Source of the DNA: Lingula anatina
Taxonomy: Eukaryota > Animalia > Brachiopoda
Assembly (NCBI GenBank): GCA_051362555.1
Contig: CM120644.1
Span: 5,526,954-5,590,953 of the forward strand
Direction of reading: 5' to 3'
DNA: 64,000 bases
Shown here piece by piece: positions 18,360 to 61,459 of the stretch (position 1 is the stretch's first letter; each line of letters opens with the position of its first letter). The notes under the pieces are model-generated. The model ran no database searches. It worked only from the letters and a program-made list of their open reading frames with translations, and was not told where the DNA came from. A program made the translations under genes and the position numbers.

Positions 18360-18490
18360 CTTGCTTGTTCGGCCTGATATCTGATCCAGCAATGAGACGT
18401 CCTAGAACAGGCTTCGCCCACGGATATATTGTCACTATCAATGTCTCTATGGAAACGGAGGTGACTCAAATAAAACTATCCAATCACAAC
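18360..18490 (-). promoter_or_regulatory. Putative non-coding first exon with CCAAT box upstream of GPCR copy A
   Basis: CAAG|GTAAGT donor at 18360/18359, CCAATC at 18480-18485, TGACTCA (AP-1-like) at 18462-18468, and no ATG. Homologous to 38009-38140 and 58437-58565. Confidence 0.55.
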
Positions 18491-18814
18491 CATTCTTAAT
18501 ATAACCATACACTAGTATGTCACTGTTAACGGTATAGCTCTGTGCAAATTAGTCATATACATTACACTACTTGTTTTGGCCAAGGGTTAAGCCATTCTGC
18601 TTGGATTAAATACATTTTTATGGAACACTATGTAGAGTAACGATGGCAAAATAATCAGTGCATCTGATACGCTCTTTCTGCATCTCATTATTGTCGGATT
18701 GGGTTGATTCGGTTTCTTTATAATCTCCTTCTTTCTCTTGCTCTCTTTCTCTCTCTCATCACTTCACCTAGCTACCAATCACCGCTCTCTAATTTTCGCA
18801 CATCATTCTCACAC

Positions 18815-18859
<45 letters not shown>

Positions 18860-19070
18860 GTGACAACACATATTAAACATGTCGAATGCAAATATTTATC
18901 TGTATAGGTTATCTACCACGGAAGATGACAAGTGAAACTATTAGAATAAAAATCCACCAGAATGAGGGCATCACGTTCATAAAAATGTAGTTTAGCTGGC
19001 AATCGCCCATCTTTTTCCTTCTTCCCACTCTCTCATTAGTTTGTCTAACTCAAGCACGACAACCACCCTC

Positions 19071-19109
<39 letters not shown>

Positions 19110-19367
19110 AGTGGTCCATATATTGAAATAAAACATTTACCAATATTCGCAGTTTACCATTATAGATAGGTGAAACATTACAGCGATTGAACGGGAATGA
19201 AGGCAAATGCACTTAATTGTTTAGTCCCATTTCACAATTCTCATCACAGCTGACTTGTGGCCTGACACAAAATATTCAACATTATTTCAATCAGCTATTA
19301 TGAATACATGAGGACAAAATCCCAACAAAAATCTAATTGAGATTATGTGGTAACTCAATTAGGGCAA

Positions 19368-19654
19368 CCCGCACGAAAACGCAGTAGATACTACAGCGCA
19401 GTAGACTAATGCAATCATACGTACTGCAAACATGCCTCAAATCTGCTTCGATTTGGGAGCTAATAAGCATATTTGAAACATGCTTCTATCATGCTGCTAA
19501 TCTACTGTATTAATGCTCCTCTCTGTACAAACCTATGTACTTTTTGGAGTAGAATTGCAGTAGGCTATGCTGCATTTCTACTGCAAATGTGCTCCACACC
19601 ACTGCTGCGTTAATGCTTCTTTGCTACTTCGATACTACTGCATTTTCGTGCGGG
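19368..19654. mobile_element. MITE of the same family, inverted, copy-A specific
   Basis: CCCGCACGAAAA...TTTTCGTGCGGG, the reverse complement of 17009-17291. The site is empty in B at ~38985. Confidence 0.8.
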
Positions 19655-20305
19655 TTAACATAAGCCTTTACCCACTGTAGGACCTATAGGAAACTGGCCA
19701 AAATCCCACTGGGTCCAATGAGACACATATACTAGATCTGAAGGCCGTTTGATAAAATCCCTATAGAGACCTGTGGGTGGTTCTTTTGATCTTCCGATTT
19801 GGACCCTGGAACCCACTACCAAAGATCCATCTACTGCTGTTGCAAAATCGGTTGAAGGTACTTGACCAATATTTGAGACTGCTAACGCAACTCGACAGCA
19901 CCATCCATCCGGCGTCTGTTAGCAAATAGGTGGACCTATTTTCAGAAGCTTCAAAACAATCTCGAAACTAAAAATTGAATGGCAAATTAAATTTCTTGGG
20001 GGATACCCCCTAATATGGTCACAGATTGATTGTCACCAGATATTCACAGATATGTCTTTGGCTTATTCCTGACACAATCTTCCGTCAAAATGTACACCTT
20101 ATTAATCTGTGGCCCTGGTAAAGGGTTCATGGGCAGAAGGATGTTCTCAACCATTGTTTTAAGGCCTGTTCTATAGTCAATTTCAGAAGAATACGAACCT
20201 TTCCCACGTCAACCAAACCACCATCATAGATAATTATTTTTATTATTGTAGTTATTGTCGGATCTTAGTTTGGTTGAAATGACAATTACCGTCACCTCTC
20301 ACCAC

Positions 20306-20355
<50 letters not shown>

Positions 20356-20579
20356 AACGCACGAAGACACAGTGACTCATATCCTAATAAACGTTTACCA
20401 ATATCCCCATTTCATCCTTAAAATGAAGTGAAACTGATGAAAAACAAAACACTAACTGAACAGAAATGAGGGCAAATGCAATTAACTGTCTATTCCCATT
20501 TCACGCTTATCTATACAGCTGACTTGCAACCAGACACAAAATATTAAATAACTATAATCGGCCATTATGTCTATATTGC

Positions 20580-21915
20580 GTTATGGGTGACTTTCATGAC
20601 AAGTTAGGGTTAATAAACAAGTTAATAAACAAGAGCATTACCACAAGGAATGTTGGTAGTGGAGAAAGGAATGGGGGAGGGAAATGTTGATAGAATGGGC
20701 CATGGCAAACAAGATTAAGATCATGAACACCTTCTACAGAAAGAAAAATATAAGAGGATGGACATGGGAAAGTCCAGACGCTAAATAAAATAATGAAATT
20801 GATTACATCATGACAAACAGACCAAACATATTGACTGACGAGAAAGTACTGAACAGACTAAACATCGGTATTGACCTCAGAGCTGTCTTGGGAGTGATTC
20901 GGATCAATGTCAGGAAGGATGGAAGAATGCAAATATGATCATAAGGCGTAACAGAAAAAACATAAAGACTTACAGACCCATCTGCTTATTATCAAACCTG
21001 TATAAGATTTATACCAAGATTTTTGTCTCAAAGGCTAACAAAAGCCTGAATTAATTAGCACAGCCAAAAGGATATGCAGGTTTCAGAACAGATCACATGC
21101 ATATTGTCAACCAGCTGAAGAAAATTTTATGAAGACAACCAGGCTCAACCACCTCATGTTTGCAGGTGACATCATAGTGGTAGCAGATGACCCAAACGAT
21201 CTTCAGACAACACTAGAGACCGTAGCAGATGTAAGCCTCAGGTGTGGGTTAAACATAATACCAGCAAGACTAAAGTAATAGGAGAAATGAGATAAATGCA
21301 ATAGAAGAGTATGTACAGGTATAACTTGGGCAACGTTTCAGCCTCAGCGACAAAACTCTGGATGAAGAAATCCAAAGAAGAATAAACGCAGGATGGGTAG
21401 CGTTAACAAAGCACGAAGATATATTAAAAAGCAGTCCCCCTACCTGTCTGAAAAGGAAAATGTTCAATGCCATCTGTGACCTATAATTTAGAGACGGACA
21501 AATAATGCATCCATGGAACAAAATCTATTAACGGCATGTAAAAAGTTAGAAAGAATTTTGTTAAACCTTAGAGTATGAGATAGGATGGCCATCAAGTGCA
21601 CAAGAGAACAGATCAAAGTGAAGGATGTGCTTCTTATAGTTAAAGAGATGAAATGGAGATGGAAGGACATATCAGTAGAATCAAAGATGGCAGATGGACA
21701 ATAAGGGTGACAGAATGGACACCAAGATATAAATATAGGAAACAAGGGAAGCCTCGTAAGAGATGGATTGATGAATTAGACGAATACTGAAAAAAAAAAA
21801 AAAAACTGGAATTGTGGAGCCCAAGACAAAATACGCTGGATGAAGCATGCAGAGGCTTTTGTCCAACAGTGGAACAATTTAGGCTATGAAAGATGATGAT
21901 GATGATGATGATGAT
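20580..21915 (+). mobile_element. Degenerate RTE-clade LINE
   Basis: Relic motifs WTWESPD..NEIDYIM (APE endonuclease), HLMFAGDIIV (RT) and RKQGKPRKRWIDEL (RTE C-terminus), with a (GAT)n 3' tail. Many stops and frameshifts. Confidence 0.8.
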
Positions 21916-22615
21916 TAAAAATCCAAAAACAATTCTGAAAGATGTTAAATGGTGAATCAATTTTTAAATAGCAGACTAACATGTCCCTTTCCTCACTATG
22001 GACCTATAGGTAATTGGCAAAAATCCTATTAGGCCCTAAGAGACATATATCTTAGAGAGTCTTCTACAAGACGCCCGATAGAATTCCAAAAGAATTTTTT
22101 AATTGAGATTTCTGAAAAGATGTTTTGGTGGTCTCTTGTTTATGAAAGCCTGTATTTAATAACCTTTTGTATTTCCTTTCTTCCTGCAGTGAGAAACCAC
22201 GGCATTAGAGCATGGCTAGAGAATGTGCCAGCCAAAGCTCTTGCAATTCTCTTGTAATTCTCACGACAACTATTCACATGGGTGATTGCAAGCATGCCAT
22301 CTATTCATTAGAATCTCGATTTTCATATAGCTCTTATTGCAACACAGTTAAAGTAGATATGCCATCCAAAACAGTGATATTTTTGTCTTAGAGTTGGAAA
22401 ATCCTGATAGAAAGTCGAATGGTTCTAACTTATGTATCTTAAATGAGTACATGTGTCGGGCTAGGTGTCGGCTGTGTAGAGAAATATGAAATGGGACCAA
22501 ACAATTAATTGCATTGCCCCCATTCCATTTCAGTTCAACAATTTTACCAATGTAAACTGCGAATATTGGTATTTCTTTTCTGCCAAGTGATGTGCCACTG
22601 CGCGCGGGCAATGTT

Positions 22616-26858: not shown

Positions 26859-29800
26859 CTACTTATCACATGCGTCATTGAAGAACTCCTCGACGTAGAG
26901 CCGCAATGGCGACCAAAGCGACGGTTCCATCTCCCCCCTCTTGAGTTTCATGAGCTGTAAGAATCACAAAAATATTTTTAAAAAACACATCCATACCTTG
27001 TTTCAAAGGCTACAGCATTACAAAGAAATTTGGCGTTTGATTGGTTGAAAGCTTGGCGTGATTCTTTGGTTTCATTCTTTCTGAATTAAATTCATAAGAC
27101 AAACAGGCCGCCGGGAATTTTCAGAATTAATCCATACAAAATCATGAAATAGTTTTCACAAGTATATACGTCAACTCACTTGGTGTCCATCCTCAGTATC
27201 TGTATCTTTCTTTCATGGCAAAAAATGAATACTTCGCTGATTTAAATTTTTTGCTTAAATCAAACAGTCAAATAAAAGTGCCATTTTAAAATAGTGTTTT
27301 ACCTTGGGAATCAAAAGCAACAAAACCGTAGTTATAATAGCGAAGAGCGTGAAGCCAGCTACGACTCCAAAGTTGACACTGGGCTCTTCTTGTACGAGGA
27401 CACCTACTGGAACTCCGACAACAGTCGCCAAGGCAATGATAACCATAGCAAAACCAACCAGACTGCTGTCACCAGTATCTGTCTTCACCGTCATCACCCT
27501 AGAAAAATAAGAAACTAATGCAAATATTACGTTATATCAAATAGCAGTATAATAATATAAGTAGAACCGAAAGTTGTATCCATGACGTAGGCAGAAACTA
27601 CAGGCCCTACAGGGAATACAGTAAAAATTTCTGAAAGTAAACTTGAAACATTATGTCAATAATGTGTTTCCATGTTGTGTCTGACATGATTCGAAGGTTT
27701 GAAAGTGTTCTGGATGCGACAGATAGTGTGTTGGATGTTACGGTGTACATATTGGTTCACGTACCAGGTAGGCCAGGCCAAGCAAACAGAGACCAGCAAC
27801 AGCAGACCTTTGTACACGATAAACGCAATGGTCCAGCCCATAGCGCTCCCGCTGTGACATTGGCGATAGAAGGTCTGATACCGCACCATCTTGGCACCAT
27901 CTCTCTAATATTGAGAAGGAACGGGAGTAATATTATATTCAAGACAAACTGTGAGACAGCAGCTGAGCTAATGTACTGGTCGCACATGTGCCACCTTTGG
28001 TACAATATCAAAAAAGTACAAAAGCAATGTGACTTTGAAAAAAAAGACCAATTACCAACCTGATAAGTAGTTGAGTCAAAAAGCAATATCTTCTCTTTCA
28101 CAAAGTACATATACATCGTGGAGACCACCAGTATGGTCAACTTACAATTTCGGGTAAAAGCCTATCTTGCACCACGAGTGGGTCAGTCAACTGCCAGATT
28201 AGCAGCATCAAAATATCAATACCCAACAGTACGGCAACTCCAGACAGCATGCGCAGTTCTACTTGCAGACCCTGGCAAATATATATTGTACATAAAGATC
28301 CGAAAAGAACAACTGCAATCGTAACATTTTAGTTTGCCACATTTAAGATGAACAACATAGGCCTACAATGTACGTGGATATATGTGTGGTATATGTAGGT
28401 ATATATGAGTGGCATATATGTGAAATAGCACGGGCTCTGCAGCTGTAATTAAAGCATTTAATATAGCTTGCTTTGTTGATAGTGGATGTGTCTGCTTGGG
28501 TTAATCCTTGTATTTGCCTGCAATCCTTTCTATGTGAGTGTTTTGGATTTCACGAGATGTGACAGCCTGCTGTTCGTGAGATTTAAGTGGATGCACAGAA
28601 TGAGTTGACCACTAAAAGTCTTAGTCATTTTTAGTTAGCTAATAACTATTGCATTGTGTCCCACATGCAGTGTGCTGAATACGACAATATCATGTATGCG
28701 AGAATTCAACAGCTGTGGCAGCATGCAAGATGTTAATAAAACGCTGCGTTTAACTCAAAGCAAAAAATTACATTAATGAAAACTCACCCAATCCTGCTGA
28801 TAACGAAAGAGTCGATACACTCCCCACATCTTCAGCAGCATGGTACCGAACGACAGTGTAAACCCAGTCACAAACAGCCAGACAAAGGCATTGCATGGCG
28901 ACGACAACTCTGTCGCATTGCCTGGAACAAATCATCTGGTTTTAGAATATATGCCTATGTATAGTATGTAATGCAACTAAGGTACCGTTTAGAATAGGGA
29001 CTAACTAGTCAGGGTCAAATTTGGCCGACCCACTTGAAAACTTCCTGACGGGATTAACTATTCAGTGTCTGTCAGAGGATACGATGACCAGCTTTGTAGT
29101 GGGTCGCCATCAGACTATGTATGGGGCATAAAACAAATGTGATAATTTTTTAATGCAACACGGTAGAAGACACCAACACAGACTAAAAACGGGTTACTAA
29201 AATTCACAGCCCGCACAGAAGTGTGTTTCTTTTAAACAAGGTAGCAAAGCTGTCAAATGTACAGACGAAAAACAGAAAATAAAGATGCAGAAAATAGGTC
29301 ACCTTGTCAATTTTGATACAATAATAAATAATGCTTATAACAGCACAATCAATCAACACTAAAATTTAATTATGTACAAAAGGTAACATGGTCAATAAGA
29401 TTACAGTTTCAAGACCATGAGAGTTCAAATACACATAATGAAAATCTCAATATCTGAAAAATGTTGACAGGCCATACAATAATATTACAAAATGTTTAAA
29501 GACATAAAGAACAATACTGTTGCTTATGTGGAAAAACAGAAAATGTACAAAGCTTCTACTGGATGGGAGTTAAAAGTCACATCTTGAAGATGCCAGTGTT
29601 TGAAAAATAATTTTAAAAAAACATAACAAAAATCTCCAATAAAGCTGTTATTCAAACTTTTAATCTAGCTGTATTAACATGGTATGAACAACCCCATTGA
29701 GTTTGAGAAAAATATGGCACTTTTATTCATTTAAAGCATTAATGTTGGCGTTGCACAAAATAGTTTTTCTTTTGTAAACTTATTTGCAATATTGAACAAC

Positions 29801-30341
29801 ATTTACCTTCATAATTATCATCAATTCCTAATTATGTGACACTGTTAAGTGAGCTAAACCTATGGGAGTTTACAGGGAAATCTCAACATGTGTGTTTTAT
29901 GTAATCTCATTTCTTGGCCATTTGAAAGTTAAGTAGGTAAGTGGCTTAATAGCTCTGAATTTAGACAGTAATTACCCAAGTGAAAATTACACACTGACCA
30001 CTATCCATATAGCATCATACAGCACTCTCTGAAAATGAACCTTTCATACAGAACAGCACTGCTTCCAAAACAGAACATTGATTTTTCCAACAAAAGCTGC
30101 ACTTCAGTCCTATAAACCTTTTCAGTAAGTTTGAGAATCATAAGTAACATCCTGGCAGCTGTGTCCAAAATAAAGTTTTCTTCAATTTTGATGCAACATT
30201 ACATTTTGCTTAACAGCATAATGACAATTAAATTTTAATAATGAAATAAGAGCATCATGGATATTCTGAAAATGTGACTTCTTCAAGCCCATGGAAGTTC
30301 AAAGGCACACTTTGAAAATGGCGATATGTGAAAATTTTAAT

Positions 30342-30389
<48 letters not shown>

Positions 30390-32061
30390 AAAAAATCCAG
30401 ATAAGTTAACCATTAAGATAGGTCTACCATATAAAGCTTTATTTTAGTCATATGTTACTTTTCTGTTTGAGAAGAGCAAGTGACATGGTTTTCCTTTAAC
30501 GACGGCGACGGCGACGACAGACGCAGGTGATGGCTATATGTTTGGTGACGGTTAGATGTGTCTGTACATAAAAAGATACATTGAAATCGACTTGCACGAA
30601 TGCTCACCTTGAAAAATGACACCGACAGCCAGGAAGATGCATCCCAGTGCAATGACGCTGTTCATCAGTGGCCATGAGTTTTGAATTAACCTTAATATTA
30701 AATTGTATTGTGTTAGTTGTGATCGTGTTTGTCGTTGTGACAGGAATGGTAGTCCTGGGAATGGAAGTCCAGGATATAGGGTCCCATATGATCAGTACAT
30801 GTTAGGGTAAGTCGTAGTATTGGAGCTAGAATACGGGACGAATGTCATCTGTACAAAGTAATTGGAAATTTACTGTCATTCCTGTCACACCTGTGCTTCT
30901 GCAGTCAGAAAACATATGAATGACAATTAGTGCAATAAAACTTAAAATATCATTCCCATGTGAACAAAAATTCTTGAAATGGATCGCTTGTTGGATTCAT
31001 TTCAGATATTAATCTATGGTTGATTAAATTTACACACTTAATGACAGTTAGGTGTACGCATTTCTGCCAACACTGGTTCCAATACGTACTGCGTCTTCCA
31101 TTTGACGATCGTTACTAAAAGGAACACAACAGTGATAACAATTGATATCACAGCGATCACAGTAAAGGTTATTTTTAGTTCATCTGTGACAACCAGTACT
31201 TTTCGGACCGTCCTGTACCCAGATTGAGGTATGGAGCCACCTATGGAGAGAAAAAAATAATGCCTTACACAGCTGCTCAGAACACATCGGGTGATTATAC
31301 ACAGAACTATTAACAAGACAGCTAGTCCACTTGGACGACCCGCCACCCTCCAAATAAATAAATAAATAAAGCCCATGCGAAAGCTGCGTGGACATCAAAG
31401 CCAATCCCAACATGGATTCTACAGATGGCTTCCACTGTGCATCAGCAGGGAAGTTAACATTTTAGCTGAAAAAAATCACTGTTTATGTAACTTTCCTTGC
31501 CGAAACGGAATGTTTTTCCCTATTCTGTTAATTAAAGACAGACGCAAATAAATAAACGAAGGCGAAAATATGAGGAGATAGATCTATGAAGTCGACATAC
31601 TGCTTGGGTTCAGACAATAAAATATTGGTGAATGAATTTCAATATAAGTTTGGTAATAAGTGCACTCAATATGTAGAACAACCGCAGAACGCACCATGAG
31701 AATACCACAGGTCACTAATCTTCCCCGACAACGTGATGTTCCGGGATTTCTGGTCATAAATACCAAACAATATAGCTGTACCGTCTGAAATCAGAAATAG
31801 GATACCAATTAATCATTGATTCTAGGATATAAATAACTTTACATGTAGGGGGGCATAGATAAAGAACTAGATGCACGCATGCATCCCTTCTTCTTTATTA
31901 CACTCACACACTCGGGGAAACGCACACACAAACACAGACGCACTAAAGCAACTGAATTCCAATGTATGTTTAAAACAATTTCTCCACGGTTGTTGAATGT
32001 TTCGGCATGGGCTCACTGGTGTACATGTTATTTTTGGTATTGCGTATTTAAGCAATTAAAA

Positions 32062-32095
<34 letters not shown>

Positions 32096-35000
32096 TGAGT
32101 GTTTGTTTGACCGGTGGCAGTCGGGGAGGAGGTGGTTGTGTGTGGTTTTATTACATTACATCTGGATGCGTGCTAAAAACCTACTTCTTATTTGCTCCAT
32201 AGACAGCCAGCTCATTCGACTTCCATGTGGTGAGAAAGACACAGGACCCTTGAAAGAGAAAAAAATGTCATGATGTTACATAAGCAATAACTTTTTTTTT
32301 TTTTTGGGGGGGGGGTAGGGTAGGTTGAGCACGTGTGTCTCCCTTATAGTGTAGCTTACAAGTTACTAATGTAGTACTCCTTCTATATATCTCCCATGAA
32401 AGTATAACTTTCGATCCGAGACAAAGTCAGGCAATGTTCCATCTCTGTGCTCTACAAGTGAAAATCATAGAAAATGATTTTGTCTTTGACCCCACCAGCA
32501 ACTTACGGAATAGTTAATAGAAGTAAACAATGATTTCACTCCAAATATGTCTCTCTGGAATTTGAAAATACATTAAGAGCTATGACTTGCCTACTGTTTT
32601 TTAAAGACGATAATAGCGAAAACACAAAACAAAGCCCCATTTCAGTGAATCTTGTCAACCAACTCTTCACTTACACTATAATACATCTGACAAACCTTGA
32701 AATACTTACCGACGCACCGAAGAAGTTGGTGCGATTCATTTCTGGCACCAGAGCATCCGTCACCGTGCCCAGATCGGTGTACTTGAAGTTGGTGATTACT
32801 CTTGGCGGAATACGAGGAAGACTCTTGTTTAAGGCCAATGCAGCCGCCCATATGGCATCATAATTCACTTGATATAGTATTCTTCTGGTGTCGTCATTGA
32901 ACCAAGCCTGTTCTTTCATTTCCCTCAAAATTTCTGCATGATCCTAAAAAAATACGCGCCCGTGTATATACATATATAAAAAACGTCGCTTGTCGACGGA
33001 ATTTACTACTCTTTAAGTTCATAAGTATTCCATCTTAAAGAGATTATGTTTTGTTCATATTATGGCTTGAAACGCGTGCACGATATGTATATGTTTGTGT
33101 GCGTGCGCGTGCATTGCTTCTGTGTGTACCTTTACTGTAAATGGCCGTATTGGTTCATATCCAACTTCGCTAGCATGTTTAGCTTCAGCACGGAATATAA
33201 TGAACTGCCCTTCTGCCGCTTGGACCACCTGCTCTGCGTTGCAAGAGAGTTGCCCTTTTCGATGCATGTTGGATGCTAAGTTGCGGTAATCTTTGACGTG
33301 TTGCACCAAAGTCAGCCACACATATTTCTTTCCAATCAAACCATATTTGTATGCCTGTTTGAAAAAAAAAACAAAACATGATTAGCAAACCACATACTAT
33401 GTCAAATATATGTTCTATGTCATTTTAAAAGGTGAGGAATATTGTGTTGGATACAGAGCTGCCATATACAGATGCTATCATACGGTACATGTACCCTGTA
33501 TCACTCTATTTCCCCTTTCAAAAAAACAACTTAATCTAACACTTTAATCTTTCCAAAGGTTAGGCACGACTTTCAGGGGGAGACACAAGAGGGTCAATTT
33601 TGGTCTGCTCCAGTCAGTCTCCGCCATTGATTTGATTAAAATATATGTCAGCAACAGCAAATAAAAACTGATAGCAAATAAAAAGAGAAATTGTAAGTAC
33701 AATTGAAAAATGCAAAAAAACTAAATACAATGGCATTTTTATAGCATTTTCATTCCCAAGAAGTGTTGCGTGTAAGCGTAGCCAGTTACACTTCGGATTG
33801 GATTGTCGTTGTCTAGCTACCGAAGTGACGGGAAGTCCGCTAGGAACTGTAGGTCGTTTCCAACTACTAAATGTACAGGTGACATTCGTCCCATTAACAT
33901 GTACTAATCCCAAGACTCCGACCAACCCAAACCTGTAGTAATCATATGGGAGCCCGGACTTCCATTCCTAGGACTACCATTCCTGTCAGACAATCCACTC
34001 AAAAACATATCCATCTGTTCCTAACCCGGCAGACAGTGTTTATAAAACTAGCGGGATATCTGTTATTTGGCGGCTCGTTGGTTCAGTCCATAACACGCAA
34101 GTTGTGCGCTATCATTTTAAACTTACCTGACAAAACACATGGCAAAGCGATGAGCCCTGTTTGTTACTATGATGCATAATTACCCTTGCGTCCAGTTCCT
34201 AGAACGACAGAAAAAACTGGCTAATTTTATATGAAGGCTATTGATTGTGTACCAAGTAGGGCAAATATAGGAGAAAGACACCACTGAACACAAAGAATGA
34301 TGCATCTCTCCCATTATATCTTGGGAAGCTTAATTTGGCTAAGTTTTAAACCAAGAAATTCGTATTGTAGTTAAAATCCATTCACTTAGGCTTAAAGCCT
34401 CACCTTCAGTTTTTCCATCACTTGGCCCAGCTGCTCTACTCTATAGAATACAGAAGTGACAATTTCTATACCCGACTGTCTTAGGAGAATTTCCACTTCT
34501 TTCGACATCTACTCGGAAAAGAAAAAGTAAACACAGTTGTTCTTCAAAAAATCTAATATTTCTTCAAACAAAAGTATAGGTTTTGCATGCAGACAAACAG
34601 CAATTAAGCCGCCAAAATGTAAAATTCGTTTTACTTATTAATAGCATCCGTTACATGAGACTAATTTGACATTTCATGCGTGACACCCAGGCAGATAATA
34701 ATACTTGAATTCCTATAAAGGCAAAGCAATATTATGCTGTCAGTCCGCTGGAAATGTTAGTACCCACTTACCTCTGTAAACGACCTCTTGTCCTCCGCAA
34801 GCAATGCCACGCGGGTCCAACCGAAGCGCTCGACAAAATCCACTTCTATGTTTATAACGTCTAGCAATGCGCCGATTGTCCGGTACAAGTATGGGAAGAC
34901 GAGTCTTTGGGATAGTATGGTAGACGAGCTTCCGGTCGAAATCTGCAATATACATGTATCTATATAAGGATCTATTCAACATGATTTTGGACCTAGGTGT

Positions 35001-36473: not shown

Positions 36474-36666
36474 TTTCAAACGCACAAATTCGTATAACAA
36501 TCTGGTCGTTGCACAGTGTCCGTACGACAGCGTTTACCATCTGATAAACTTCGAAACGGTAATCTGCAGTTTGAAGATATATCATGGAACTTAAGGATAA
36601 AAGTGACTTGTCAATTTGTAGATAATACTTCATTCTACTCAATGCCACTATTTTCACAAAAACACC

Positions 36667-36949
36667 CCCTCACGAAAATTCAGTAGTATCGAAGTGGCAA
36701 AGAAACATTAACGCAGTAGTGGTGTAGAGCATATTTGCAGTAGAAATGCAGTATAGCCTACTGCAATTCTACTCCAAAAAGTACATAGGTTTGTACAGAG
36801 AGGAGCATTATTACAGTAGATTAGCAGCCTGATAGAAGCATGTTTCAAATATGCTAATTAGCTCCCAAATCGAAGCAGATTTGAAGCATGTTTGCAGTAT
36901 GATTGCAGGAGTCTACTGCGATGGAGTATCTACTGCGTTTTCATGCGGG
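36667..36949. mobile_element. MITE, paralogue of 17009-17291
   Basis: Near-identical sequence at the collinear position. Confidence 0.75.
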
Positions 36950-38008: not shown

Positions 38009-38140
38009 CTTGTTTGTTCTGCCTGATATCTGATCCAGCAATGAGACGTCTTAGAACAGGTTTCGCCCACGGATATATTGTCACTATCAATGTCTCTATG
38101 GAGACTGAGGTGACACAAATAAAACTATCCAATCACAACC
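38009..38140 (-). promoter_or_regulatory. Putative non-coding first exon with CCAAT box upstream of GPCR copy B
   Basis: CAAG|GTAAGT donor at 38009/38008 and CCAATC near 38129. Homologous to the blocks at 18360 and 58437. Confidence 0.55.
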
Positions 38141-39629: not shown

Positions 39630-39684
<55 letters not shown>

Positions 39685-39944
39685 ACACACACACAAACAG
39701 ACATACACACAAACACACGCAGACACACACACACAGTGGCTTATCTTGATAAAGCATTTACCGATATCCCCATTTTATCCTTAAAATGAAGTGAAACTGC
39801 TGAAAACAAAACATTAACTGAACGGAAATGAGGGCAAATGTTATTAATTGTCTACTCCCATTTCACGCTTGTCTATACAGCTGGCTTGCAACCAGATACA
39901 AAATATTACATAATTATAATCGGCCATTATGTATATATAACGTT

Positions 39945-50468: not shown

Positions 50469-50651
50469 TTGACGAAAATTGTTTATTGACATTTTGATAA
50501 ACCGAATGGCTACAGTAAATGCCAATATAATTTCATTGATTCAACTCTTGTTTCAGTATTTGTTACTTTAATAATAACGGCTGCAATTTCATCATAGGTT
50601 ATTTGTGGTCATTTGCGGGAAGATTCCTTTTTGTCCTCTCTTAGGAATTGA

Positions 50652-53600
50652 TTACTGGGCTGGAACAAATGGAAAGATGCCAATTATATACTTACATTGC
50701 CTAACTCCACCACATGGTATGTGTGTATTTAAGTGTAATTTTTTTATATTAAAGAAAACAAGTGGCTTAAAACAAAGTGGTTAAAATTGTAAAGAACAGT
50801 GAAGTGTACATATGTGCTGCACAAGCATGAAAGCTCACACAAACCAACAATCACTTCTGCTTGATCGTTTGAGCTCAGTTTCTACATAATAACTCATATA
50901 CAGTATGGGATTAAATGCTACCCTTTTTTCGTCAGAGTTTGATTTAAAATTGGATACGTTTGGCCTTCTTAGTAGAAATGTGTCCATAAAATCAAACAGG
51001 TGCTGAACAGGTAAAATATTACCCAATTCAATTAATATTTGATGAGGTGTCAGATGCACATTAACATCGGGGCGTAGGTAAGCTCAGCATTTGAGTGTTT
51101 ATGGGCACATTGTAGGAGAAGGCGTAAGCTTAGATATACAGTTAATCCTTGCGCAAATCATTTTAAATGTTCTGAGTGTATGAGAAGCGAAATACCGGTA
51201 CAATGCACCAGAATTACTTTTTCCACTCAACAGCTTGGGAATTCAAAAAAGACTTACCAGTGCAGTTCACATATGGGTTACCTTCGAAGCCATTTTCACA
51301 AATACAAAATTGGTGAGTTTTTTGATTGCATCCATCGTTATTATCAAGCATGTCCTCTAATCCCCATTTTTTTTCAACAACGCATTTCGCATTTCCCCCA
51401 CAAGGCACTGAAAACGTAAAATACCGTTTTGCAGTGAAGAGCCAAATTTATTGTCACTTTGAGTCGACAAAAATAGCATTATCACATGGCGCACTTCACT
51501 TAAATTTATGCCATGACAATAATTGAAATATGTTAGTAATTTTCTGAGGATTATACTAAAACCGATTGACCTAACCTTCTACTGTAGAGCATCTTGCTCG
51601 CATTCATATCAGTTGTATTATTCATTAAAAGCTGTGGCATCCACCTGTAACATCTCATTGTTATACCTGTAAATTTGATTTTTCCGACAAACAACTACAG
51701 CGTACCTTTATTGCAAGTGGGTCCCCATATAGCCCCAGGGCACATGCACTTGAAACTGCCATCACGATTTTTACAGGTACCGTTATTTAGGCAAGGCTGA
51801 TTATTGCACTCGTTGATATCTGGAAAAAAAATTAAATTCGAACCCTTTCCTGGCAGACAACCGTATATACAATTCAAAACCAAACGCATATATCGTTTTA
51901 GCTCATAAACTACAGGGTTACTACTTAATATGGAATATTATTTTTTGGCGAGTTAATTTTCAACAAAATATTTATTATATCTTTAACTACTTTAAATCCA
52001 AAACTGAGGTGTCACTCTATGCGTAGCCGGGTGTGTTACCTTATTACCACACAACTCTCGAAACAATTGATGCATGCAATTGCATGTTCTGTGGTCAGAA
52101 ATGTGAGGGGTGGTCTTTTCGGCAATTTCTGCCCTTGTATAAAAACGCATGGGTTTGACCAATCTTTGGAGTGTATTTAGAGAAGCAACAAAGGGATCGC
52201 TCTGAAACTTGACAGGTACCTTAGAAAAGATACGGTTCGACAGCTAAGCAACGCAGCTTAGTATGGGATTCTTGCTGTCAGAGAAAATGGCCAGAAACGG
52301 ACAGCCATTGCCAGGCAATGCAACATTTATCAGGAACCGTTAGTAAAGTCCTCCAAAGAAATGCTGCAACAGGGGCACCTACTCCAATACCTCGACCAGG
52401 GTGTCCGCGTATCACACCAAGAAGACAGGATTGCCTTCGCCTTAGAGTGCGCCGTGCTGGTCGTACAAAGACAACCAGTGCCCTCAGAAAAGAGTGGCAG
52501 AATGTCATTCAAACGCCCGTTTCAAGGTCCCTCGTGAACAAGAGATTACTGCAAGCCGGTTATTTTGCACAAAGACCAGTAGGGAAACAACTGTTAACAG
52601 CAGGTCATATACAGCGACGTCTGCAATGGGTTGGGGACCACGCGCGTTTGCAGCCAAAACACTGGAATCACGTCGTTTTCGGTGATGAAGCCAGATATGG
52701 AGTTTTTAAGGTTGACGGTCGAATCCGTGTCCGCCGACGTGTACGAGAGGCATAAAACGATGATTGTGTACTGCCTAGGGTGCAAGCAGGGGGTGTTAAC
52801 GTCTCTGTTTGGGGAGCAATTTATGACCAGGCCCAGAACCAGTTGGTTTTTCTAGGAGGCAACCTCAACCAGGGTTCCTACAAAGACATTTTACAGCAAA
52901 CAATGCTTCGATTTGTAAGGGTCATCTTCTGGAACAACTTTGTGTACCAAGACGACTGCGCAACCCCACATCGATCTCGCAGAATCACTGTTTTTCTTCG
53001 AAACCAATGGGTTCAGCAACTGCCCTGGCCTGCAAACTTCCTAAATATATACCCAATTGAAAATCTGTGGGCGGAAGTAACTCACAGAATTAATAGCTAT
53101 GGTCATCGGTAGGTAAATAGTGATGAACTGCGACAGGCAAATATGCGTGGAATGATATCCCCATCCAAACTCTATAAAACTTGTCACAGGGTATGCCATG
53201 TAGGATGAGGGCACTGCAAGCGGCTGCTGGAGGTCATACCCGCTATTGATAACCTTTCATGATTTACTGTAATGAGTTCTTTGACTGTGTAACATATCAC
53301 TGTCCGGAGGCTATCATTTTCTTTGACACCTTAGCTTAAAACTAATACTGACATCAAACTGTTGATATGGTTTTCTGGGGGTGTTCTTTTCTTTTGAATG
53401 ATATCTTATGTCAGATTTGATATTATTGACCAAAGTATCTCACAGCAGAATACTGGATATTTTTATCACTCAATGACATACATACTTTTTTGATGAATCA
53501 AGCCAAAAAGAAATTTAATCAGCACTCAAAAATAACAATGATAAAATTCCATATTAAGTAGTAACCCTGTAGTTACACAAAAAGCTATAGTTCTAAATGG

Positions 53601-56600
53601 GTCTAAGCTTTCAGACAAAAATTTGGTCAAATTCAGTTCAAGATAAATTCACTGTAGTCCACTTTCACGAATAAAGTATAGGCCTTGAGCAATCACATCA
53701 TGTCTCCTGTAATAAAACCAGAGCGCCACTGTTTCATTTATCGGATTTCTTGATTACATCTATCTTTGATTTTTCTTGGATAAAAGAAGCTTTAGACTGA
53801 AAATCAAGGACAAAAGTACTTTTATTGCACAAAACACATACACCAGGTCGACAGCTCACAGTAATGTACCCTGTATTTCACAGTGTTTGGTGAATCTTGT
53901 GCATGAAATACTCATATCCGTAATTTTAACGATTTCATTTGTTCTTTACCATCAGTGCAGATTAAGGTCCATGGATGCCGGATGTTACGACGGCTACTAG
54001 TTATTATTCAATAAAACAAAACCTGATTCAATTTCCTTTTCCTTTTTCTCTTCTTAGTATCTATGGAACTTTAATTTCTTAAGGGTAGGTACGTTATGGA
54101 GTCATCTTCGAAGAAACTTTATGACCATATTTTGAACAAATAAGGCCAAGGAGTGTTTAGAAATACTTAAGGCTTGAGAGTTAGAAAAAAACTTACCAGT
54201 GCAGTTCACATAGGGGTCTCCTTCGAAGCCATTTTCACAAACACAATATTGGTGAAATTTTTGATTACATCCATTGTTATTACGAGGCCTGTCATATACC
54301 ACGCCTCTTTTTTCAACAACGCATTTCGCATTATCCCCACACGGCACTGGAAACGTAAAATACCTTTTTGCAGCGAAGAGAATTTTTTGCGTTTTGACTA
54401 ATTATATAGAGATCGAATAGTGATGATTATTTAAAGGGATAATAACTCTTCGTTTCGGCCAAAAAAAAAAAAAAAAAAAAGAATTTTCCTGGAGTAAACA
54501 ACAATTTTCCTATACTTACCAATGGTTAATGAATCCATTTTAACATTCAAAGTTAGTCCCTGTTTTTTTCTAAAAAAGTTTGGTTTTTTGTTAAAATCTC
54601 TTAAGAGATTTTAACAGAGTATAGCCATCAATGGAGGTCACGTGGTCTAAAGACAAACTCAGATATCAGAATACTAGCTAACTGCCCTTTTTTGTGGTAA
54701 AACAGAATATATTATATTTCTATGAGTTATTCACAATGTTTTTATTGTAAAATATAGATCTCATACGAATAGTTATGATCCCTTTAAGATAAACAATTTT
54801 GGACATCACTGTAACTAAATATCATCTCAGCAACTATGATAGCACCCCCCTGGTTTGTATGCCCCTTTAAGGATTAATGTGCAGTGATCTACTAAACAAT
54901 GGTCTAAAACAGCCCTTTCTTGCTATAAGACATTCGCCAAATTTTATTTTTTAGTTCGTGTGGTACCGATTGATCTTGGGTAATAATGTACTACATGTGT
55001 TTATACAAGGGCGATCCAGGATTATATGAGGGGTGGGGGGAAGGGTTGCGCAGATGCAAAGTCGAACCTTATCTCCCCATGGGATCGGCGCCCGCTGAAG
55101 GGTCCCGAAAATTGTTGGTATTTTAGAGGGCGAACCTTGTTTTTTGATACGGTTTAGAACTATGATTCAGCTAGTCAAAATTATAATTTCAAGAGAAGAT
55201 CATTGGTGAATTATTATTCAGAAATCGAAGGGGCCGCCACTATATATACCCGGTATATTGGTCAACAAGTTGAGACACGCTTTCGGCCTAGAATACTTTT
55301 CTGAAACAGGCTCCATGTTATAGTGCACGAGGTGACATGACCTGGTGGCCAGAAGTGGTGGTAATATGAGCCATTTTTCAGTCAAATGCGTGGGCCAGCT
55401 AGTATTTATGCAGTGGCAATCGCCAGGGAGGAGCAGTACAAACGTAGAACATATTCCGGGTAGTTTGCAGTGTATTTCGAAGGGGAAAATAGCACAAAAT
55501 GTAAGGGTATTGTACATTATAGTTTAACTTATGTAGTTCAGATGTTTTTGTTATATTTAGTTTTGTTTTTCGTATATTTATGTAGTTTATTTATTCGTTC
55601 TAGATTTCTAAAAGTGGGTCCTCATTTCCTTATAAATGTATGTAATTTTAAGTCATCGTGTCATATTATTAACGACATGAATTTTGCCCGGTAACAAACT
55701 GCGTTATTTAAAGACTATTTATTGCGTTTATATATACCGCCAATAAAACGACAACATTTTTATGACTTATAACCTGGTAAGTAATTACAACTGCATATGT
55801 TGTCTACACCCCCGGTATGAAATTTAAAGAGCCACGACCTACCTCTGTTGCAAATGGGTCCGAAGATAGGAGAGGGACAAACGCAATGGAAAGAGTCGCT
55901 TTTTGGATGGCACGTCCCTCCATTTAAGCACGGCTGAGAATCGCAGGGAGCTGGAAAAAATATTTGCTCAAAAAATCCTCTAACACAATTAACTATGGGG
56001 TCCTGCAGGACGTCCCATAGTGCAATTCCGCATGAGGCGGCGTTCAAAATGAATTTGCATGGGGATGTTGCAAGGCTTAGGCTGTTTATTAGGTTTTAAA
56101 ATATGAAGTGAGACAGCCGTTTTGTTTTCCTTTTTAAAGACAAATTTACGTTGTGATTTTTTATCTGATCCCATTCCCATATACACTATTGGACCACGAG
56201 GGTTGCTCCAACTCTGCAGGGGTTAAGTGTAAACAGCGGAATCAGCTTAATTGCCTGACAGATACTCGAGCACCTAGCAGGGGCGTAACCAGGCCTTTTA
56301 AAAGTGTACGCACAGATTTCCAAAATTCCCAGGTAAAGCTTAATGTAGACTTACGCAACAGGTGAAGAGCACTTTAAATTATATGTACCAAATATTATAA
56401 CTTAGATTTCACCAGAAATAAAATTATCACTTTAAGTTAAAAATAGTCTTACAATATAATTAAGTTCCAGTAAATTATTTCACCAAGAGCCAACGCTTTT
56501 TCCAGGATTGGGGTACAGGCCGTCCAAATTTGCCATCTGTAATTTCCTTCAAATTTTCAGGAGGTCAAACATTTTCCAAGTACCGTGAGCGGTAGTGAGG

Positions 56601-58527
56601 GGTAGGGTAAAAATCAAATAAAAAATATTCAAAAATTATAAATTTCATTGGGGAGGGAGGGAGGGTTAAAAACAATCGATAACGATCTCCCGCTGACGCT
56701 CTTTCGCCTTTTTTCGACAAGATTGGAGTTTATGATTTTACCCGACTGGTTGGTTCAAAGGTTGTCCATCTTCTGGCCATGCATAAGCAAAAAGCGCTGC
56801 ATTAGCCCACGTCGGACCATACGGGTCCCATATGGGACCCACGTGGAACACATGGACAGATTCATCTGGGGCCCACATCACAGCCCACACGGGCCACATG
56901 TGGGACCCATCGTTGCGTGCTAACTGGGATAAGTGTTATCATCATCTTTATATGGCAACCCTGAGTCACTGGCTAATGATAAAAGGTATATGTTTGGTAA
57001 AAAATACCAATGAATAGTAATCTAGCTGAGTGAGCTATATGTAGAAAATAGATCACCCGCGTCGTAATTGAGAGAGTATAGGAAACGAGATTAATGTTCG
57101 CTACTTTGTTTTTCTCTGCTTCGACAGCTATAAACAACTGACATCCAATGCATACTGAATAAGTTCATGTCCTGTTATGCATTGGATTATAATTCTAAAT
57201 AACTGAAGATAAAGCAACCAGAAAATACCTATGCATAAATTCTGTCAGCTTTCATCATTGCCTCACCATGCTCTCTCGCTGACCTGCGTTATTTTGGTCC
57301 AGCTGTCCAATTTCCGTCCAATTTCATTTTATTTAATGCTTAACCTAGATGTCCCCCCTTTTTTCTTTTCTTACTTCTGTTTATAAATGTATATCCAATG
57401 GCATTTTCTATGCAACCCCCCTTACTTACAATCTACGGCAGCGTGAATGACAAATGCACACGCCATTAGAGTCAAAACAAGGTGCGGGCTGAACAACACT
57501 TCCATCATAGATTGGCTGATTTGGAAATGTTATGTCTTACTTCGTTGGAAGGAAATATGATTCCCTGAAACAAACGCAATCTTTGAAATTTTACGTCACA
57601 ACAATCAATCTGTTTTAACAACAATAATATTTTAACATGATGTACATGACGTAAACACAGTTTACGTGTCGGCATCAGCAATCTAGCAACTAAAAAGGCC
57701 AAAAAATGTCTAAAACGGTTGGTACAGATAAAAAATAAACAACACCAAAAATTTACCATCTTTATCTGAAATAACGTCAGAATTAATGGGGGATATATTT
57801 TTTTAAAATCAACGTGTTTTAACATTATGAACATGACGTAAACGCAGTACTTGAATTTCCGCATCAGCAATCTAGCAACTAAAAAGGCAAAAAAATGTCT
57901 AAAACGGTTGGTACAGATAAAAAGTAAACAACACCAAGAATCACCATCTTTATCTGAAATAACGTCAGAATTAATGGTGGGTATTTTTATAAATAAACGT
58001 GTTTGGAAAGCAACACATTTTTACCTACTACACCACCACCGCCACTAATAATAATAATAATATTCGCCAGACCTGCTCCTTTTGTGACCTTTTTTGTGGT
58101 GGTGGCACATAAAAGAAGGAGTCTGCAGTAACTATCCCCAAACAATTGATCATGACTTCTCATGATGCAATTAGGTTAATATACGAAGGAAAATCAGATG
58201 TACAATTCCCTTTCAAATGTTAGACAGGGTCGTTACGAACGTCTATGTATAAATTATTTTCACTGCCACGAGCATATCAATAATATTACTTGCTGTTTGA
58301 TGTGTAAATCTGTGTGATTTAATAAAACACACACTACACTAGATAAATCAAACGTGCTCGTTAGAAATATCTGTGGCAAAATAAGAAAATGAGCATTGCA
58401 TTCATTAAAATATTTCTTCATCCAAATAAATCTTACCTTCTTTGTTCGGACTGAAGTCTGATCCAGCAATGAGACGTCCCAGAACAGATCTCGTCCACAT
58501 ATATATTGTCACTGTTAACGTCTCCAT
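50652..58527 (-). CDS. Small EGF-repeat protein (EGF / atypical EGF / Ca-binding-type EGF / atypical EGF), ~206 aa
   Basis: Phase-1 exons: 58437-58527 (METLTVTIYMWTRSVLGRLIAGSDFSPNKE, less certain), 55843-55950 (PCDSQPCLNGGTC..CVCPSPIFGPIC), 54197-54346 (VPCGDNAKC..CVCENGFEGDPYVNC), 51706-51819 (DINECNNQPCLNNGTC..CMCPGAIWGPTC), 51258-51407 (VPCGGNAKC..CICENGFEGNPYVNC), 50652-50659 (AQ*, less certain). AATAAA lies on the minus strand at 50482-50487. The four EGF exons are solid. The terminal exons are inferred from phase and splice signals. Confidence 0.75.
51913..53569 (+). mobile_element. Tc1/mariner element in EGF-gene intron 3
   Basis: TIR CAGGGTTACTACTTAATATGGAAT / ATTCCATATTAAGTAGTAACCCTG with TA TSD in an AACTAGTT target. 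Frameshifted transposase with VFGDEA, VWGAI, QDDCATPH and WPANFLNIYPIENLW. Confidence 0.92.
54435..54783. mobile_element. Non-autonomous DNA element with TTAA TSD (Kolobok-like)
   Basis: TTAA|AGGGATAATAACT ... AGTTATGATCCCT|TTAA. Confidence 0.55.
57620..58005. repeat. Tandem duplication of a ~190-bp unit
   Basis: ACATGACGTAAAC..GCATCAGCAATCTAGCAACTAAAAAGG..AACGTGTTT occurs twice head-to-tail. Confidence 0.8.
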
Positions 58528-59509
58528 TGTGATTGGCGTGACACCAATGAAAATTATCCAATCGCAGACATTCGGGTTATAAACATAAATTCTTTTTTAT
58601 GCTCTTTCTATCTCTCATTAAAGTTGGAATGAATTGATATTGTGCTTTATAATCCCCGTCTTTCACTTGCTTTCTTCATCTGTATTTCACTCATTAATAA
58701 CATGTCTACTTGTTTGGCGCAGTAGGCCTACTCTTTTTACGTCCTGTTTTGCTCTCTCTCTCTCTCCCATTCCCTCTCAAAGTGACAACATATATTAAAC
58801 ATGTCGACAGCAAACAAATACACCGTAACAGTATACGTAATTTACCACGGAAGATAAATGAAATGAAAAACTATTCAAAAATATATCCACCAGAATGAGG
58901 GCATCACTTACAGGTATATGTGATATAACTGACAATTGCAGCTCTCTCTCTCCCTCGCTCCAGTTAGGGTAACTAAATATCACAGCTTCCCTCTTTCTGT
59001 TTCTATCTCATCACTTTATCTAACTTATAATTACTGCATCCTTCCTCCCAGTCAACGACGACGAGATGCCGCTGTCAAACGTTAATTCACCGACCTTCAT
59101 TTTATATAATTCAAGGGATTTTATAGCATCTTTTTGTTTACCGATCACGCATAATTTACGTGTTTTCTCCACCTCATCTCAAATTGCGTGATCACTAGAA
59201 CTTCACTTCTAATTTGCCATTTCGCTATCTAATATTTTATTATGAAACAAAATATCTAAAATATTATTTCCAATACACCATTACTTAGGTAATTCCCAAA
59301 GTCCAGTCTGCAGCTGTTGTACACGTGTTAGAAAATTTTGATTGGGAAAATAACCAATCAACTCAAATTTTATCCGTCTTTTACATGTTTAACCTAATGC
59401 AAACAAATTGTCTTTCACAGCATTCTCCTTTAATCTGCTTCTCACTCTCTCTCATCCTCTCTATCTCTCATCACTCATCAAGGTCTTATAATTAACGCCA
59501 CCTCCCCTA

Positions 59510-59556
<47 letters not shown>

Positions 59557-59831
59557 ACAGACAGACAGTGGCACATAAATTGACACAAATATTTTTCAAT
59601 ATTCGCAAATTACCCTTATGGAAAGGTGAAACTGCTGAAAAACAAGGCATTAATTGAACGAGAATATGGGCAAATGCAATTGGCTGTTATGTCCCACTTC
59701 ATATTTCTCCACACAGCTGATTTGTGACCTGACACAAATATTTCGACAATACTTATGATCGGCCATTTTGAATACATTACGACAGTATTCATCTAATACA
59801 ATACATTTTCTTTCAAAGCATTTTCTTTTAA

Positions 59832-59914
<83 letters not shown>

Positions 59915-60223
59915 TTCTATCTATATCATCCTATCTCCATACTGTATTTCATAACTCAGTCATGGGACTGCTTTTCGGGTCTTACATTTGCTTTGAGAAA
60001 ATAACAATTACAGCCACCACCCCCGTTTCTCGCTCTGTATCTCTGTCTCTCTCTCTCTCACACACACACACACATGGGCGTCCGCAGGGGGTGGTCAGTA
60101 GGGTTACTTAATCCCTCTGGGGTTTCGGAACTGCATTTTTAATGCTGGTAGCCAGCCAATCATTATCTCCCCCTTCAATGTCTTTGACCCTCCACCCGGG
60201 AAAATTTTTCAGCGGACACCCAT

Positions 60224-60261
<38 letters not shown>

Positions 60262-61459
60262 TGACACATAAGCTGTCAAAAATATATTTGATATTCACAA
60301 TTTACCCTTATAGAAAGGTGAAACTGCTGAAAAAAAGTCATTAATAAAATGAACGAGAATATGGGCAAATGCTTTGTCCCACTTCATATTTTTCCACACA
60401 GCTGACTTGTGACCTGACACAAATATTTCAATAATATTTATAATCGGCCATTTTGAATATATTAAGACAAAATTCCAAATAAATCTGAATGAGATTATGG
60501 TATATAGCAGGATAAATATCCCTTTCCCCACTATTCAACCTGTAGGTAATTAGGCAAAATTATACAGCTGTATATGCTACTACGGGACAAATGTCCTAGG
60601 CAGGAATTCCACTGAGCTCTAGAACACATTCTTTATGAAAATTTCGTAAGGAGATCCCCTTTTACTTATGAATAGATTCCGGGAACATGTTACCAGGGGT
60701 CCATCTACCTGCTCCAAAATCGGCTGAAGGGCCTTTGGCAGATTTTGTGGGTGTCAGAACACCTTGACGACATCATCCGTCTGGTCTCTGGTAGAACATA
60801 GGTGGACCTTTGCTTCAAAAGCTTCAAAACAGCCTCCAGACCCAAAGGTGTGTGGCAAGTCCACCTGCTGGGAGCATACATGTACCGTCTAACATGGTAA
60901 CAGAGAGATATTTCACCAGATATTCACAGATTTGTCTAATTCATAACACAATCATATTCCTTAATGCACAGGTACATGTAACTAATGTCCAGTCCTGGAA
61001 GAGGGTACATGGGGGAACAAGCATTCTCAAACACTTTTGATATTTATAATTAAGTACAGTTATGTCCTATTTCTCAGTATCGGCCACGTGTTAACTTGTT
61101 TTTGATACATTATCTTTTTGCGTGATCACCAGAACTTCACCTTGAATTTGTCAATTAACTATCTAAAATTCCTCATAAAACGATCTCTGCCAACCCAGCT
61201 TTGAACTAAATACTGGTATCTAAAATATTATTTCCAATACACCATTAATTTGATAAATAATTAAGTCCAGTCTGCAGCTGTTGTGCACGTGATAAAATTT
61301 TTCGATTGAGAAAATAAACAATCAACTCAAATTTCATCTGACTTAAACACTATTCATCTAACATAATACATTGTCTTTCACAGCATTTTCCTTAATCTCT
61401 CTCTTTATACATATATATATATATATAAAATATCACAGCTATAAAGCTATATATATATA

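What the first reader, a model, noticed from the sequence alone, without database searches (positions are those of the whole stretch)
18360..61040. One promoter/first-exon block drives three genes: coding in the EGF gene, ATG-less in both GPCRs
Seen: three collinear minus-strand blocks (18360-~20170, 38009-~39490, 58437-~61040). Each has the same ~90-130 nt exon ending AAG|GTAAG, a CCAAT box just upstream, and the same ordered upstream modules. In the EGF gene the exon reads ATG GAG ACG..ATG TGG..GAA G| and splices in phase 1 into the first EGF exon. In both receptor copies the equivalent codons are ATA and CCG, so the exon has no ATG, and the receptor keeps its own signal-peptide exon 1.5 kb downstream. 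Inference: promoter capture, in which an unrelated GPCR gene and an EGF gene came to share one cis-regulatory cassette. One interconverted between coding and 5'UTR exon, and the receptor then duplicated. The direction of transfer cannot be read from this window.
Basis: partly seen in the sequence, partly recalled or inferred. Interest (0 to 1): 0.78.

Follow-up and report, generated by a model that had tools for sequence, protein, structure and literature searches.

The report
Receptor genes borrowed an EGF promoter
In the lamp shell Lingula, two receptor genes and an unrelated gene for a small secreted EGF protein carry the same low-copy promoter-type block and leader exon, likely copied from the EGF family onto the receptor and likely driving it, a known kind of promoter capture, although no receptor transcript using it was seen.

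Summary
The shared block is real: exon, AAG|GTAAG donor, a reverse-strand CCAAT 125-126 nt upstream and ordered upstream modules lie before two intact GABA-B-like receptor genes and a four-EGF gene of Lingula anatina. The headline contrast is wrong. In this gene the shared exon would carry a 41-codon upstream ORF. An EGF paralogue (XP_013395596) starts with the same exon, spliced to its signal exon, with both ATGs kept, and one RNA contig fits it. DNA depth suggests about ten copies, against about 2,000 for a neighbouring MITE, so it is not a high-copy transposon. Best reading: duplication plus deletion put an EGF-family promoter and leader exon onto a neighbouring receptor, which then multiplied (LRRC37/Sdic type). 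Use by the receptors is not shown: none of 3 RNA sets covered the receptor-type exon, and two expressed receptor relatives have other 5' ends. The scan's earlier notes hold no look-alike.

The parts
58437..58553 (-). Shared leader exon, EGF copy (C); donor at 58437; ATGs at 58527 and 58500; 5' end inferred from the TATA-like motif
   Evidence: paralogue P0011 starts with the homologous peptide; one X8 contig has a piece ending exactly at 58437
18360..18475 (-). Shared leader exon, receptor copy A; no ATG; 5' end inferred
38009..38124 (-). Shared leader exon, receptor copy B; no ATG; 5' end inferred
   Evidence: no receptor-type RNA over it in 3 of 3 RNA sets
58558..58582 (-). TTATA (58582) and GATTGG (58563): predicted core promoter of C
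   Evidence: function inferred
18480..18504 (-). TTATA (18504) and GATTGG (18485): predicted core promoter of A
   Evidence: function inferred
38129..38153 (-). TTATA (38153) and GATTGG (38134): predicted core promoter of B
   Evidence: function inferred
58597..63940 (-). Upstream modules of C (P1, P2, X, Y; the Y-X unit is tandemly repeated at 62724-63930 beyond a TIR element)
18662..22134 (-). Upstream modules of A (P1, P2, X, MITE insert, Y, X, 1.3-kb insert, Y fragment)
38310..39945 (-). Upstream modules of B (P1, P2, X, Y, X)
   Evidence: DNA depth
57430..57564 (-).
   Evidence: joint 57430/55950 in 2 X8 contigs and 2 X18 reads
50500..55950 (-). Four phase-1 EGF exons (55950-55843, 54346-54197, 51819-51706, 51407-51258) and last exon from 50659; 202-aa secreted protein
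   Evidence: all four joints in X8 contigs
26859..36473 (-). GABA-B-like class C GPCR copy B, 16 coding exons, 750 aa, no internal stop
   Evidence: RefSeq XP_013384646.1
1..16815 (-). GABA-B-like class C GPCR copy A, 15 coding exons in the window, no stop, runs off the window
   Evidence: RefSeq XP_013384647.1

Best explanation
A low-copy block of 2-5 kb ending just after a splice donor stands before a Lingula four-EGF gene and two unrelated GABA-B-like receptor genes; it is likely the promoter and leader exon of the EGF family, likely fused onto a neighbouring receptor's first intron by duplication plus deletion, and likely now starts the receptor transcripts. Shown: the homology, its end about 20 nt into intron 1, each gene's own signal-peptide exon, and the exon at the front of an EGF paralogue's RefSeq model. 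Inferred: transcription starts about 115 nt above the donor and the exon splices to the signal exon in all three genes. In the EGF family the two ATGs give an N-terminal extension (P0011) or a 41-codon upstream ORF (gene C). The receptor lineage lost both ATGs and then multiplied (A, B and at least one more copy), with later homogenisation of intron 1.
For: Homology and breakpoint: profile hits end at 18343, 37986 and 58416; intron 1 plus exon 2 of C vs A and B scores 25 against a shuffle mean of 26. EGF-family use: P0011 (XP_013395596.1) begins with the homologous peptide, then 14 residues, then its signal peptide. An X8 contig (depth 9.23) has a piece ending at donor 58437 plus EGF pieces where C and P0011 agree; 7 X18 reads carry 13 letters that translate to P0011's QEYG. 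Low copy: 772-1053 over the exon, 86-99 for single-locus contigs, about 210,000 over the MITE. Further receptor-type copy: an X1 contig with 32 differences runs 92 nt into the receptor intron and is neither A (13 differences) nor C (68). Direction: the exon is in two EGF paralogues whose proteins are 63% identical, while receptor paralogues are 86-92% identical; both ATGs are shared by C and P0011. Neighbourhood: P0011 and receptor P0004 share a 484,126-nt scaffold. Possible use in receptors: donors and CCAAT spacing intact; exon core more conserved than upstream modules (16/91 vs 278/1000 mismatches, Fisher p=0.036; p=0.059 against proximal modules only); depth-3 RNA contigs inside intron 1 in X8 and X9 but no RNA at 38048-39064 in 3 of 3 sets.
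Against: No joint from 38009 among the 10 listed and no RNA over the receptor-type exon in X8, X9 or X18 (min_share 30). The expressed receptor relative in X8 (945-nt contig, 12 differences) has 166 nt at its 5' end that lie nowhere on 36240-39600; X18 receptor reads (31 at 36477) stop before 36500. The joint 58437->57564 of gene C is not among the 15 of 35 joints shown, and X18 has about 16-fold depth on the signal exon but about 1 on exon C. The peptide tree does not resolve direction: C-A 9/30, C-B 11/30, C-P0011 11/30, A-P0011 13/30; C closest to A/B in only 56% of bootstraps.
Confidence: 0.52

Rival explanations
1. The block before A and B is a silent relic of the 5' end of a deleted EGF paralogue. 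The receptors start from their own promoter or another leader exon, and the block is carried along by tandem duplication.
For: Two expressed receptor relatives have 5' sequence that does not lie on the shared exon, and 0 of 3 RNA sets cover the receptor-type exon. The high A-B identity of the exon (87/91) lies in a tract where intron 1 is 98% identical, so it need not reflect selection.
Against: The test has almost no power for A and B: only one listed RNA piece is B-identical (X9, depth 2, 36264-36383). X18 also barely covers the leader exon of EGF transcripts. Donor, CCAAT spacing and a gap-free exon are kept at about 25% flank divergence. Intron-1 RNA without upstream RNA.
Confidence: 0.26
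2. Reverse direction: the block was the receptor ancestor's promoter and was captured by the ancestor of the EGF genes C and P0011, which gained the ATGs.
For: At least three receptor-type loci carry it. The long EGF module is found only in Lingula proteins (the 3 best of 7 hits; the 3 of the other 4 that I read are unrelated repeats). EGF-domain shuffling is reported as frequent in Lingula (PMC4595640, passages). The tree is unresolved.
Against: Needs two in-frame ATG gains (from ATA and CCG) instead of two losses. The EGF paralogues that share the exon are more diverged than any receptor pair measured. Expressed receptor relatives show other 5' ends. The EGF family has its own conserved signal peptide, also in the 45%-identical P0010.
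Confidence: 0.15
3. One reading: the exon is the coding first exon of gene C and splices directly to EGF exon 1 at 55950.
For: The frame is open and the phases match; the homologous peptide is annotated as coding in P0011.
Against: RefSeq X1 and X2 start in the exon at 57508. The two X8 contigs that join 55950 to 57430 account for all depth in that bin; X18 has 2 exact and 7 variant reads for it. No 58437/55950 joint among 15 of 35 shown. The peptide is weakly hydrophobic (best 11-residue mean 1.03 against 2.78 for the signal exon). Differences from A and B show no codon-position signature (5/3/8 and 6/4/6).
Confidence: 0.03
4. The block is an ordinary dispersed transposon that supplied an exon to all three genes.
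For: Module X ends in a microsatellite and occurs 9 times in the window, twice inverted. A 45-nt piece of module Y (39349-39393) is high-copy (bin depth 8,371), so parts may be old element remnants.
Against: Exon, P1, P2, X and most of Y have depth 118-1053 at 80% likeness against about 210,000 for the MITE. RNA depth is 0-2 over 58222-59400 against hundreds to thousands over a true repeat at 54361-54954. No Pfam hit in two module-Y frames. The exon occurs only 3 times in 64 kb, each time before a signal-peptide exon.
Confidence: 0.04

Closest known systems
Primate LRRC37 family, promoters Cl3 and Cl8 copied from DND1 and BPTF (PMC3371713, abstract and passages)
   Same: A promoter segment of an unrelated gene placed before a gene family by segmental duplication, then spread to further family members; the recipient keeps its own ATG exon and may keep its own promoter.
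   Different: There the donors are conserved single-copy genes, the segments are 0.7 kb at 91-98% identity, and activity was shown by expression assays and luciferase. Here the likely donor is a neighbouring lineage-specific family, identity is 68-82%, the leader exon carries ATGs in one family only, and use by the recipient is not shown.
Drosophila melanogaster Sdic (PMC7475035, passages)
   Same: A duplication spanning two adjacent genes, fused by deletions, followed by tandem expansion and gene conversion: the route proposed here.
   Different: Sdic gained a de novo coding exon; here the recipient protein is unchanged and only the 5' regulatory end differs.
Chimeric structures from tandem duplications in Drosophila yakuba (PMC5460883, abstract only)
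   Same: Shuffling of regulatory elements through tandem duplication is a common source of expression change.
   Different: Those were studied in a population sample; this block is old (about 25% diverged) and present in several paralogues.
GABA-B receptor subunit 1 (PDB 7ca3_A, E 8.5e-74)
   Same: Venus-flytrap domain joined directly to a class C 7TM domain (PF01094, PF00003).
   Different: Several residues recalled as GABA contacts are replaced in P0007; an expanded family of at least 5 RefSeq proteins on 3 scaffolds.

Membership tests
Promoter capture by segmental duplication (LRRC37 type) | Homologous promoter segment before genes whose coding parts are unrelated | tested here: met
   signal exons not significantly alike
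Promoter capture by segmental duplication (LRRC37 type) | Low copy number, not a transposon | tested here: met
   about 10 single-locus units against about 2,000 for a MITE; contig depth is only a rough measure
Promoter capture by segmental duplication (LRRC37 type) | Segment starts transcripts of the donor family | tested here: met
   met for paralogue P0011 (RefSeq model; X8 contig ending at the donor; assignment inferred); not seen for gene C itself
Promoter capture by segmental duplication (LRRC37 type) | Segment starts transcripts of the recipient gene | tested here: inconclusive
Promoter capture by segmental duplication (LRRC37 type) | Outgroup shows the segment at the donor only | not testable with these tools
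   no genome held; 0 metagenome matches to the 23-nt core
Sdic-type fusion of adjacent genes | Donor and recipient adjacent on one strand, junction inside the genes, later tandem expansion | tested here: met
   order C, B, A on the minus strand; homology ends about 20 nt into intron 1; A-B duplication
Sdic-type fusion of adjacent genes | Unfused ancestral arrangement seen in relatives | not testable with these tools
   no relative's genome available
High-copy transposon | Hundreds of dispersed copies | tested here: not met
   (except 45 nt inside module Y)
Coding first exon (signal peptide) of EGF gene C | Splices to EGF exon 1 and encodes a hydrophobic leader | tested here: not met
GABA-B receptor subunit 1 | Venus-flytrap plus 7TM without a cysteine-rich domain | tested here: met
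GABA-B receptor subunit 1 | GABA-contact residues kept (their roles are recalled, not from a call) | tested here: not met
   in the alignment of P0007 the W of GWPG, first S of GCSS, H of RTHP and W of GWY are replaced; GSSS is kept

The most novel reading that the evidence does not exclude
An orphan receptor subfamily was wired to the promoter of a Lingula-specific secreted EGF family, so both are made in the same cells as a lineage-specific signalling module (possibly ligand and receptor). One leader exon would then exist in three translational states: N-terminal extension (P0011), upstream ORF (gene C) and ATG-less 5'UTR (receptors).
Probability: 0.12. Interest if true: 0.72.

Novelty: new member of a known kind. 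Interest (0 to 1): 0.4.

Why it matters
If the receptors use the block, it is a clear invertebrate case of a GPCR family changing its expression by taking the promoter and leader exon of a neighbouring, unrelated family while its protein stays unchanged. Several copies at graded distances make the steps traceable, including loss of upstream ATGs after capture. It predicts shared tissue expression of the two families, which existing Lingula tissue RNA can test. The mechanism itself is known from LRRC37 and Sdic.

Tried and rejected
Signal-exon homology: both signal exons begin with the same 11 letters, but codon-shuffle tests gave 72-402 of 2000 (DNA) and 101-740 of 2000 (protein) at or above the score, and the UTR parts 228 of 1000; not accepted. 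Homology in the first 100 nt of intron 1: 37 of 1000 (C vs B) and 207 of 1000 (C vs A), inconclusive. EGF exons as part of the receptor gene: rejected, the EGF gene ends in its own last exon at 50659. A candidate extra receptor leader exon (40960-41185, 87% like 22104-22330): B has a GTAAGT, A lacks it at that place, no match near C; not followed. Run search: no RNA holder listed; X8 is labelled 'DNA?' but shows spliced joints. No lay was made on A. Metagenome scan for the 23-nt core: 0. Literature: 'Lingula anatina + chimeric gene + promoter' 0 papers; 'Lingula + GABA-B + expansion' 1 paper on glutamate receptors, listing only; supplements of PMC4595640 were not read and may list these genes. 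No complex prediction was run.
Full report
Setting. The window is animal DNA without a held genome. Its proteins match RefSeq entries of the brachiopod Lingula anatina. On the minus strand lie, in order, a four-EGF gene (C) and two GABA-B-like class C receptor genes. B has 16 coding exons and 750 aa without an internal stop; A has 15 coding exons in the window and no stop.

Observation. The three blocks exist. The 91 nt from ATG to donor are 75/91 identical and gap-free between C and each receptor copy, far above chance (score 125, shuffle maximum 26 of 200). The donor AAG|GTAAG, a GATTGG 125-126 nt upstream (CCAAT on the other strand) and a TTATA 19 nt further up are in all three. Upstream modules keep their order at 68-79% identity. 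The exon profile hits 3 places in 64 kb, and homology ends about 20 nt into the intron; intron 1 and exon 2 of C do not align to A or B.

RefSeq XP_013384657.1 starts with a signal peptide encoded by a separate exon, 57564-57430 (acceptor predicted). A model with that exon and a last exon at 50659 matches 198 of 202 residues. In run X8, whose contigs are spliced, two contigs join 57430 to 55950 and explain all depth on EGF exon 1; X18 has 2 exact and 7 variant reads for this joint. No 58437/55950 joint is among the 15 of 35 joints shown. So C has the same layout as the receptors. Spliced to 57564, the exon's first ATG opens 41 codons in the main frame, ended by one TAA 7 codons before the main ATG. 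The exon peptide is weakly hydrophobic (1.03 against 2.78).

Use in the EGF family. Three Lingula EGF loci were found among 10 hits. Paralogue P0011 (XP_013395596.1) begins with the homologous peptide, both methionines kept, and runs in frame through 14 residues into its signal peptide. One X8 contig (depth 9.23) has a piece ending exactly at donor 58437, about 65 nt long by bin arithmetic, plus EGF pieces where C and P0011 agree. Seven X18 reads carry letters that translate to P0011's QEYG. Assigning this contig to P0011 is my inference. For C itself the joint 58437->57564 was not listed, and X18 has about 16-fold depth on the signal exon but about 1 on exon C.

Copy number. In DNA run X1 at 80% likeness, single-locus contigs have depth 86-99. 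Receptor exon 2 has 346-635, the shared exon 772-1053 (10 contigs at 38051), P1, P2 and X 118-1021, and the intronic MITE about 210,000. The tool warns that summed depth is no copy number, but a 200-fold gap excludes a high-copy transposon; only 45 nt inside module Y are repetitive. One contig with 32 differences runs 92 nt into the receptor-type intron and is neither A nor C, so at least a third receptor-type locus has the block. At least 5 receptor proteins lie on 3 scaffolds (5 of 18 candidates), one of which also holds P0011; adjacency there is inferred from scaffold length and accession numbers only.

Use in the receptors: not shown. None of X8, X9 and X18 covers the receptor-type exon. 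The 39-nt signal in X8 equals the depth-9.23 EGF contig; the remainder in X9 would fit a like piece. No joint from 38009 is among the 10 listed. Against the reading, the receptor relative expressed in X8 has 166 nt of 5' sequence that lie nowhere on 36240-39600, and X18 receptor reads stop before 36500. For it, donors and CCAAT spacing are intact, the exon core is somewhat more conserved than its flanks (p=0.036, or 0.059 against proximal modules), and depth-3 contigs lie inside intron 1 while 38048-39064 is empty in all three sets.

Mechanism and direction. The simplest route (inferred) is a duplication of an EGF gene beside a receptor, then a deletion from EGF intron 1 to receptor intron 1, then receptor expansion with conversion (intron 1 is 98% alike between A and B, module Y 86%). 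Direction EGF to receptor is favoured at about 70%. The exon is shared by EGF paralogues 63% identical, more diverged than the receptor pairs measured (86-92%); two ATG losses are simpler than two in-frame gains; expressed receptor relatives have other 5' ends. The peptide tree is unresolved (56% bootstrap). The signal exons are not demonstrably homologous.

Known cases. LRRC37 acquired promoters from DND1 and BPTF by segmental duplication (PMC3371713, abstract and passages). Sdic arose by duplication of two adjacent genes, fusion by deletions and tandem expansion (PMC7475035, passages). Regulatory shuffling by tandem duplication is common in D. yakuba (PMC5460883, abstract). The Lingula genome paper reports family expansion and frequent EGF shuffling (PMC4595640, passages; supplements not read). 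Two searches found no description of this case. The scan's notes have no look-alike or nearby finding; one unchecked note describes another chimeric gene in this genome.

Verdict. A real, low-copy shared promoter-type block; the coding-versus-non-coding headline is largely wrong, and promoter use by the receptors remains to be shown. New member of a known kind; interest 0.4.

Noticed in passing
window 18518-18531 vs 58507-58520: The roughly 150-nt segment found only in A and B above the TATA-like motif holds a 14-nt exact match to the start of exon C (0 of 2000 shuffles reach 14); perhaps an older tandem copy of the exon start.
   Followed up: partly
window 16882 and 36540: An out-of-frame ATG 67 nt above each receptor start opens a 40-codon frame overlapping it; the choice of acceptor would include or skip it.
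   Followed up: no
window 54197-54346 and 51258-51407: A long-loop EGF-like module without a fitting Pfam match; its clear relatives among 1.84 billion representatives are Lingula proteins only. Isoform X2 skips the first of these exons.
   Followed up: partly
window 45700-49400 (-): LINE with endonuclease and zf-RVT matches, broken by frameshifts, between the EGF gene and block B.
   Followed up: no
window 51900-53570, 42000-43200, 61406-62739: Tc1-like transposon remnants (PF01498 at 52225-52752); the last has inverted ends and splits the tandem Y-X units above C.
   Followed up: no
window 54361-54954, 17009-17292, 19367-19654, 36667-36950: Very high-copy short repeats, abundant in RNA and DNA; used as positive controls.
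   Followed up: partly
window 7917 (-): Receptor A uses a predicted GC donor where B has GT.
   Followed up: no
window 9423-10667 / 13659-14920: A 1.25-kb inverted repeat pair (93%) bounds a roughly 5.5-kb insertion in a receptor A intron.
   Followed up: no
window 15965-19363 vs 35619-38983: A and B are 98% alike in intron 1 but 76-86% in distal modules, suggesting gene conversion after duplication.
   Followed up: partly
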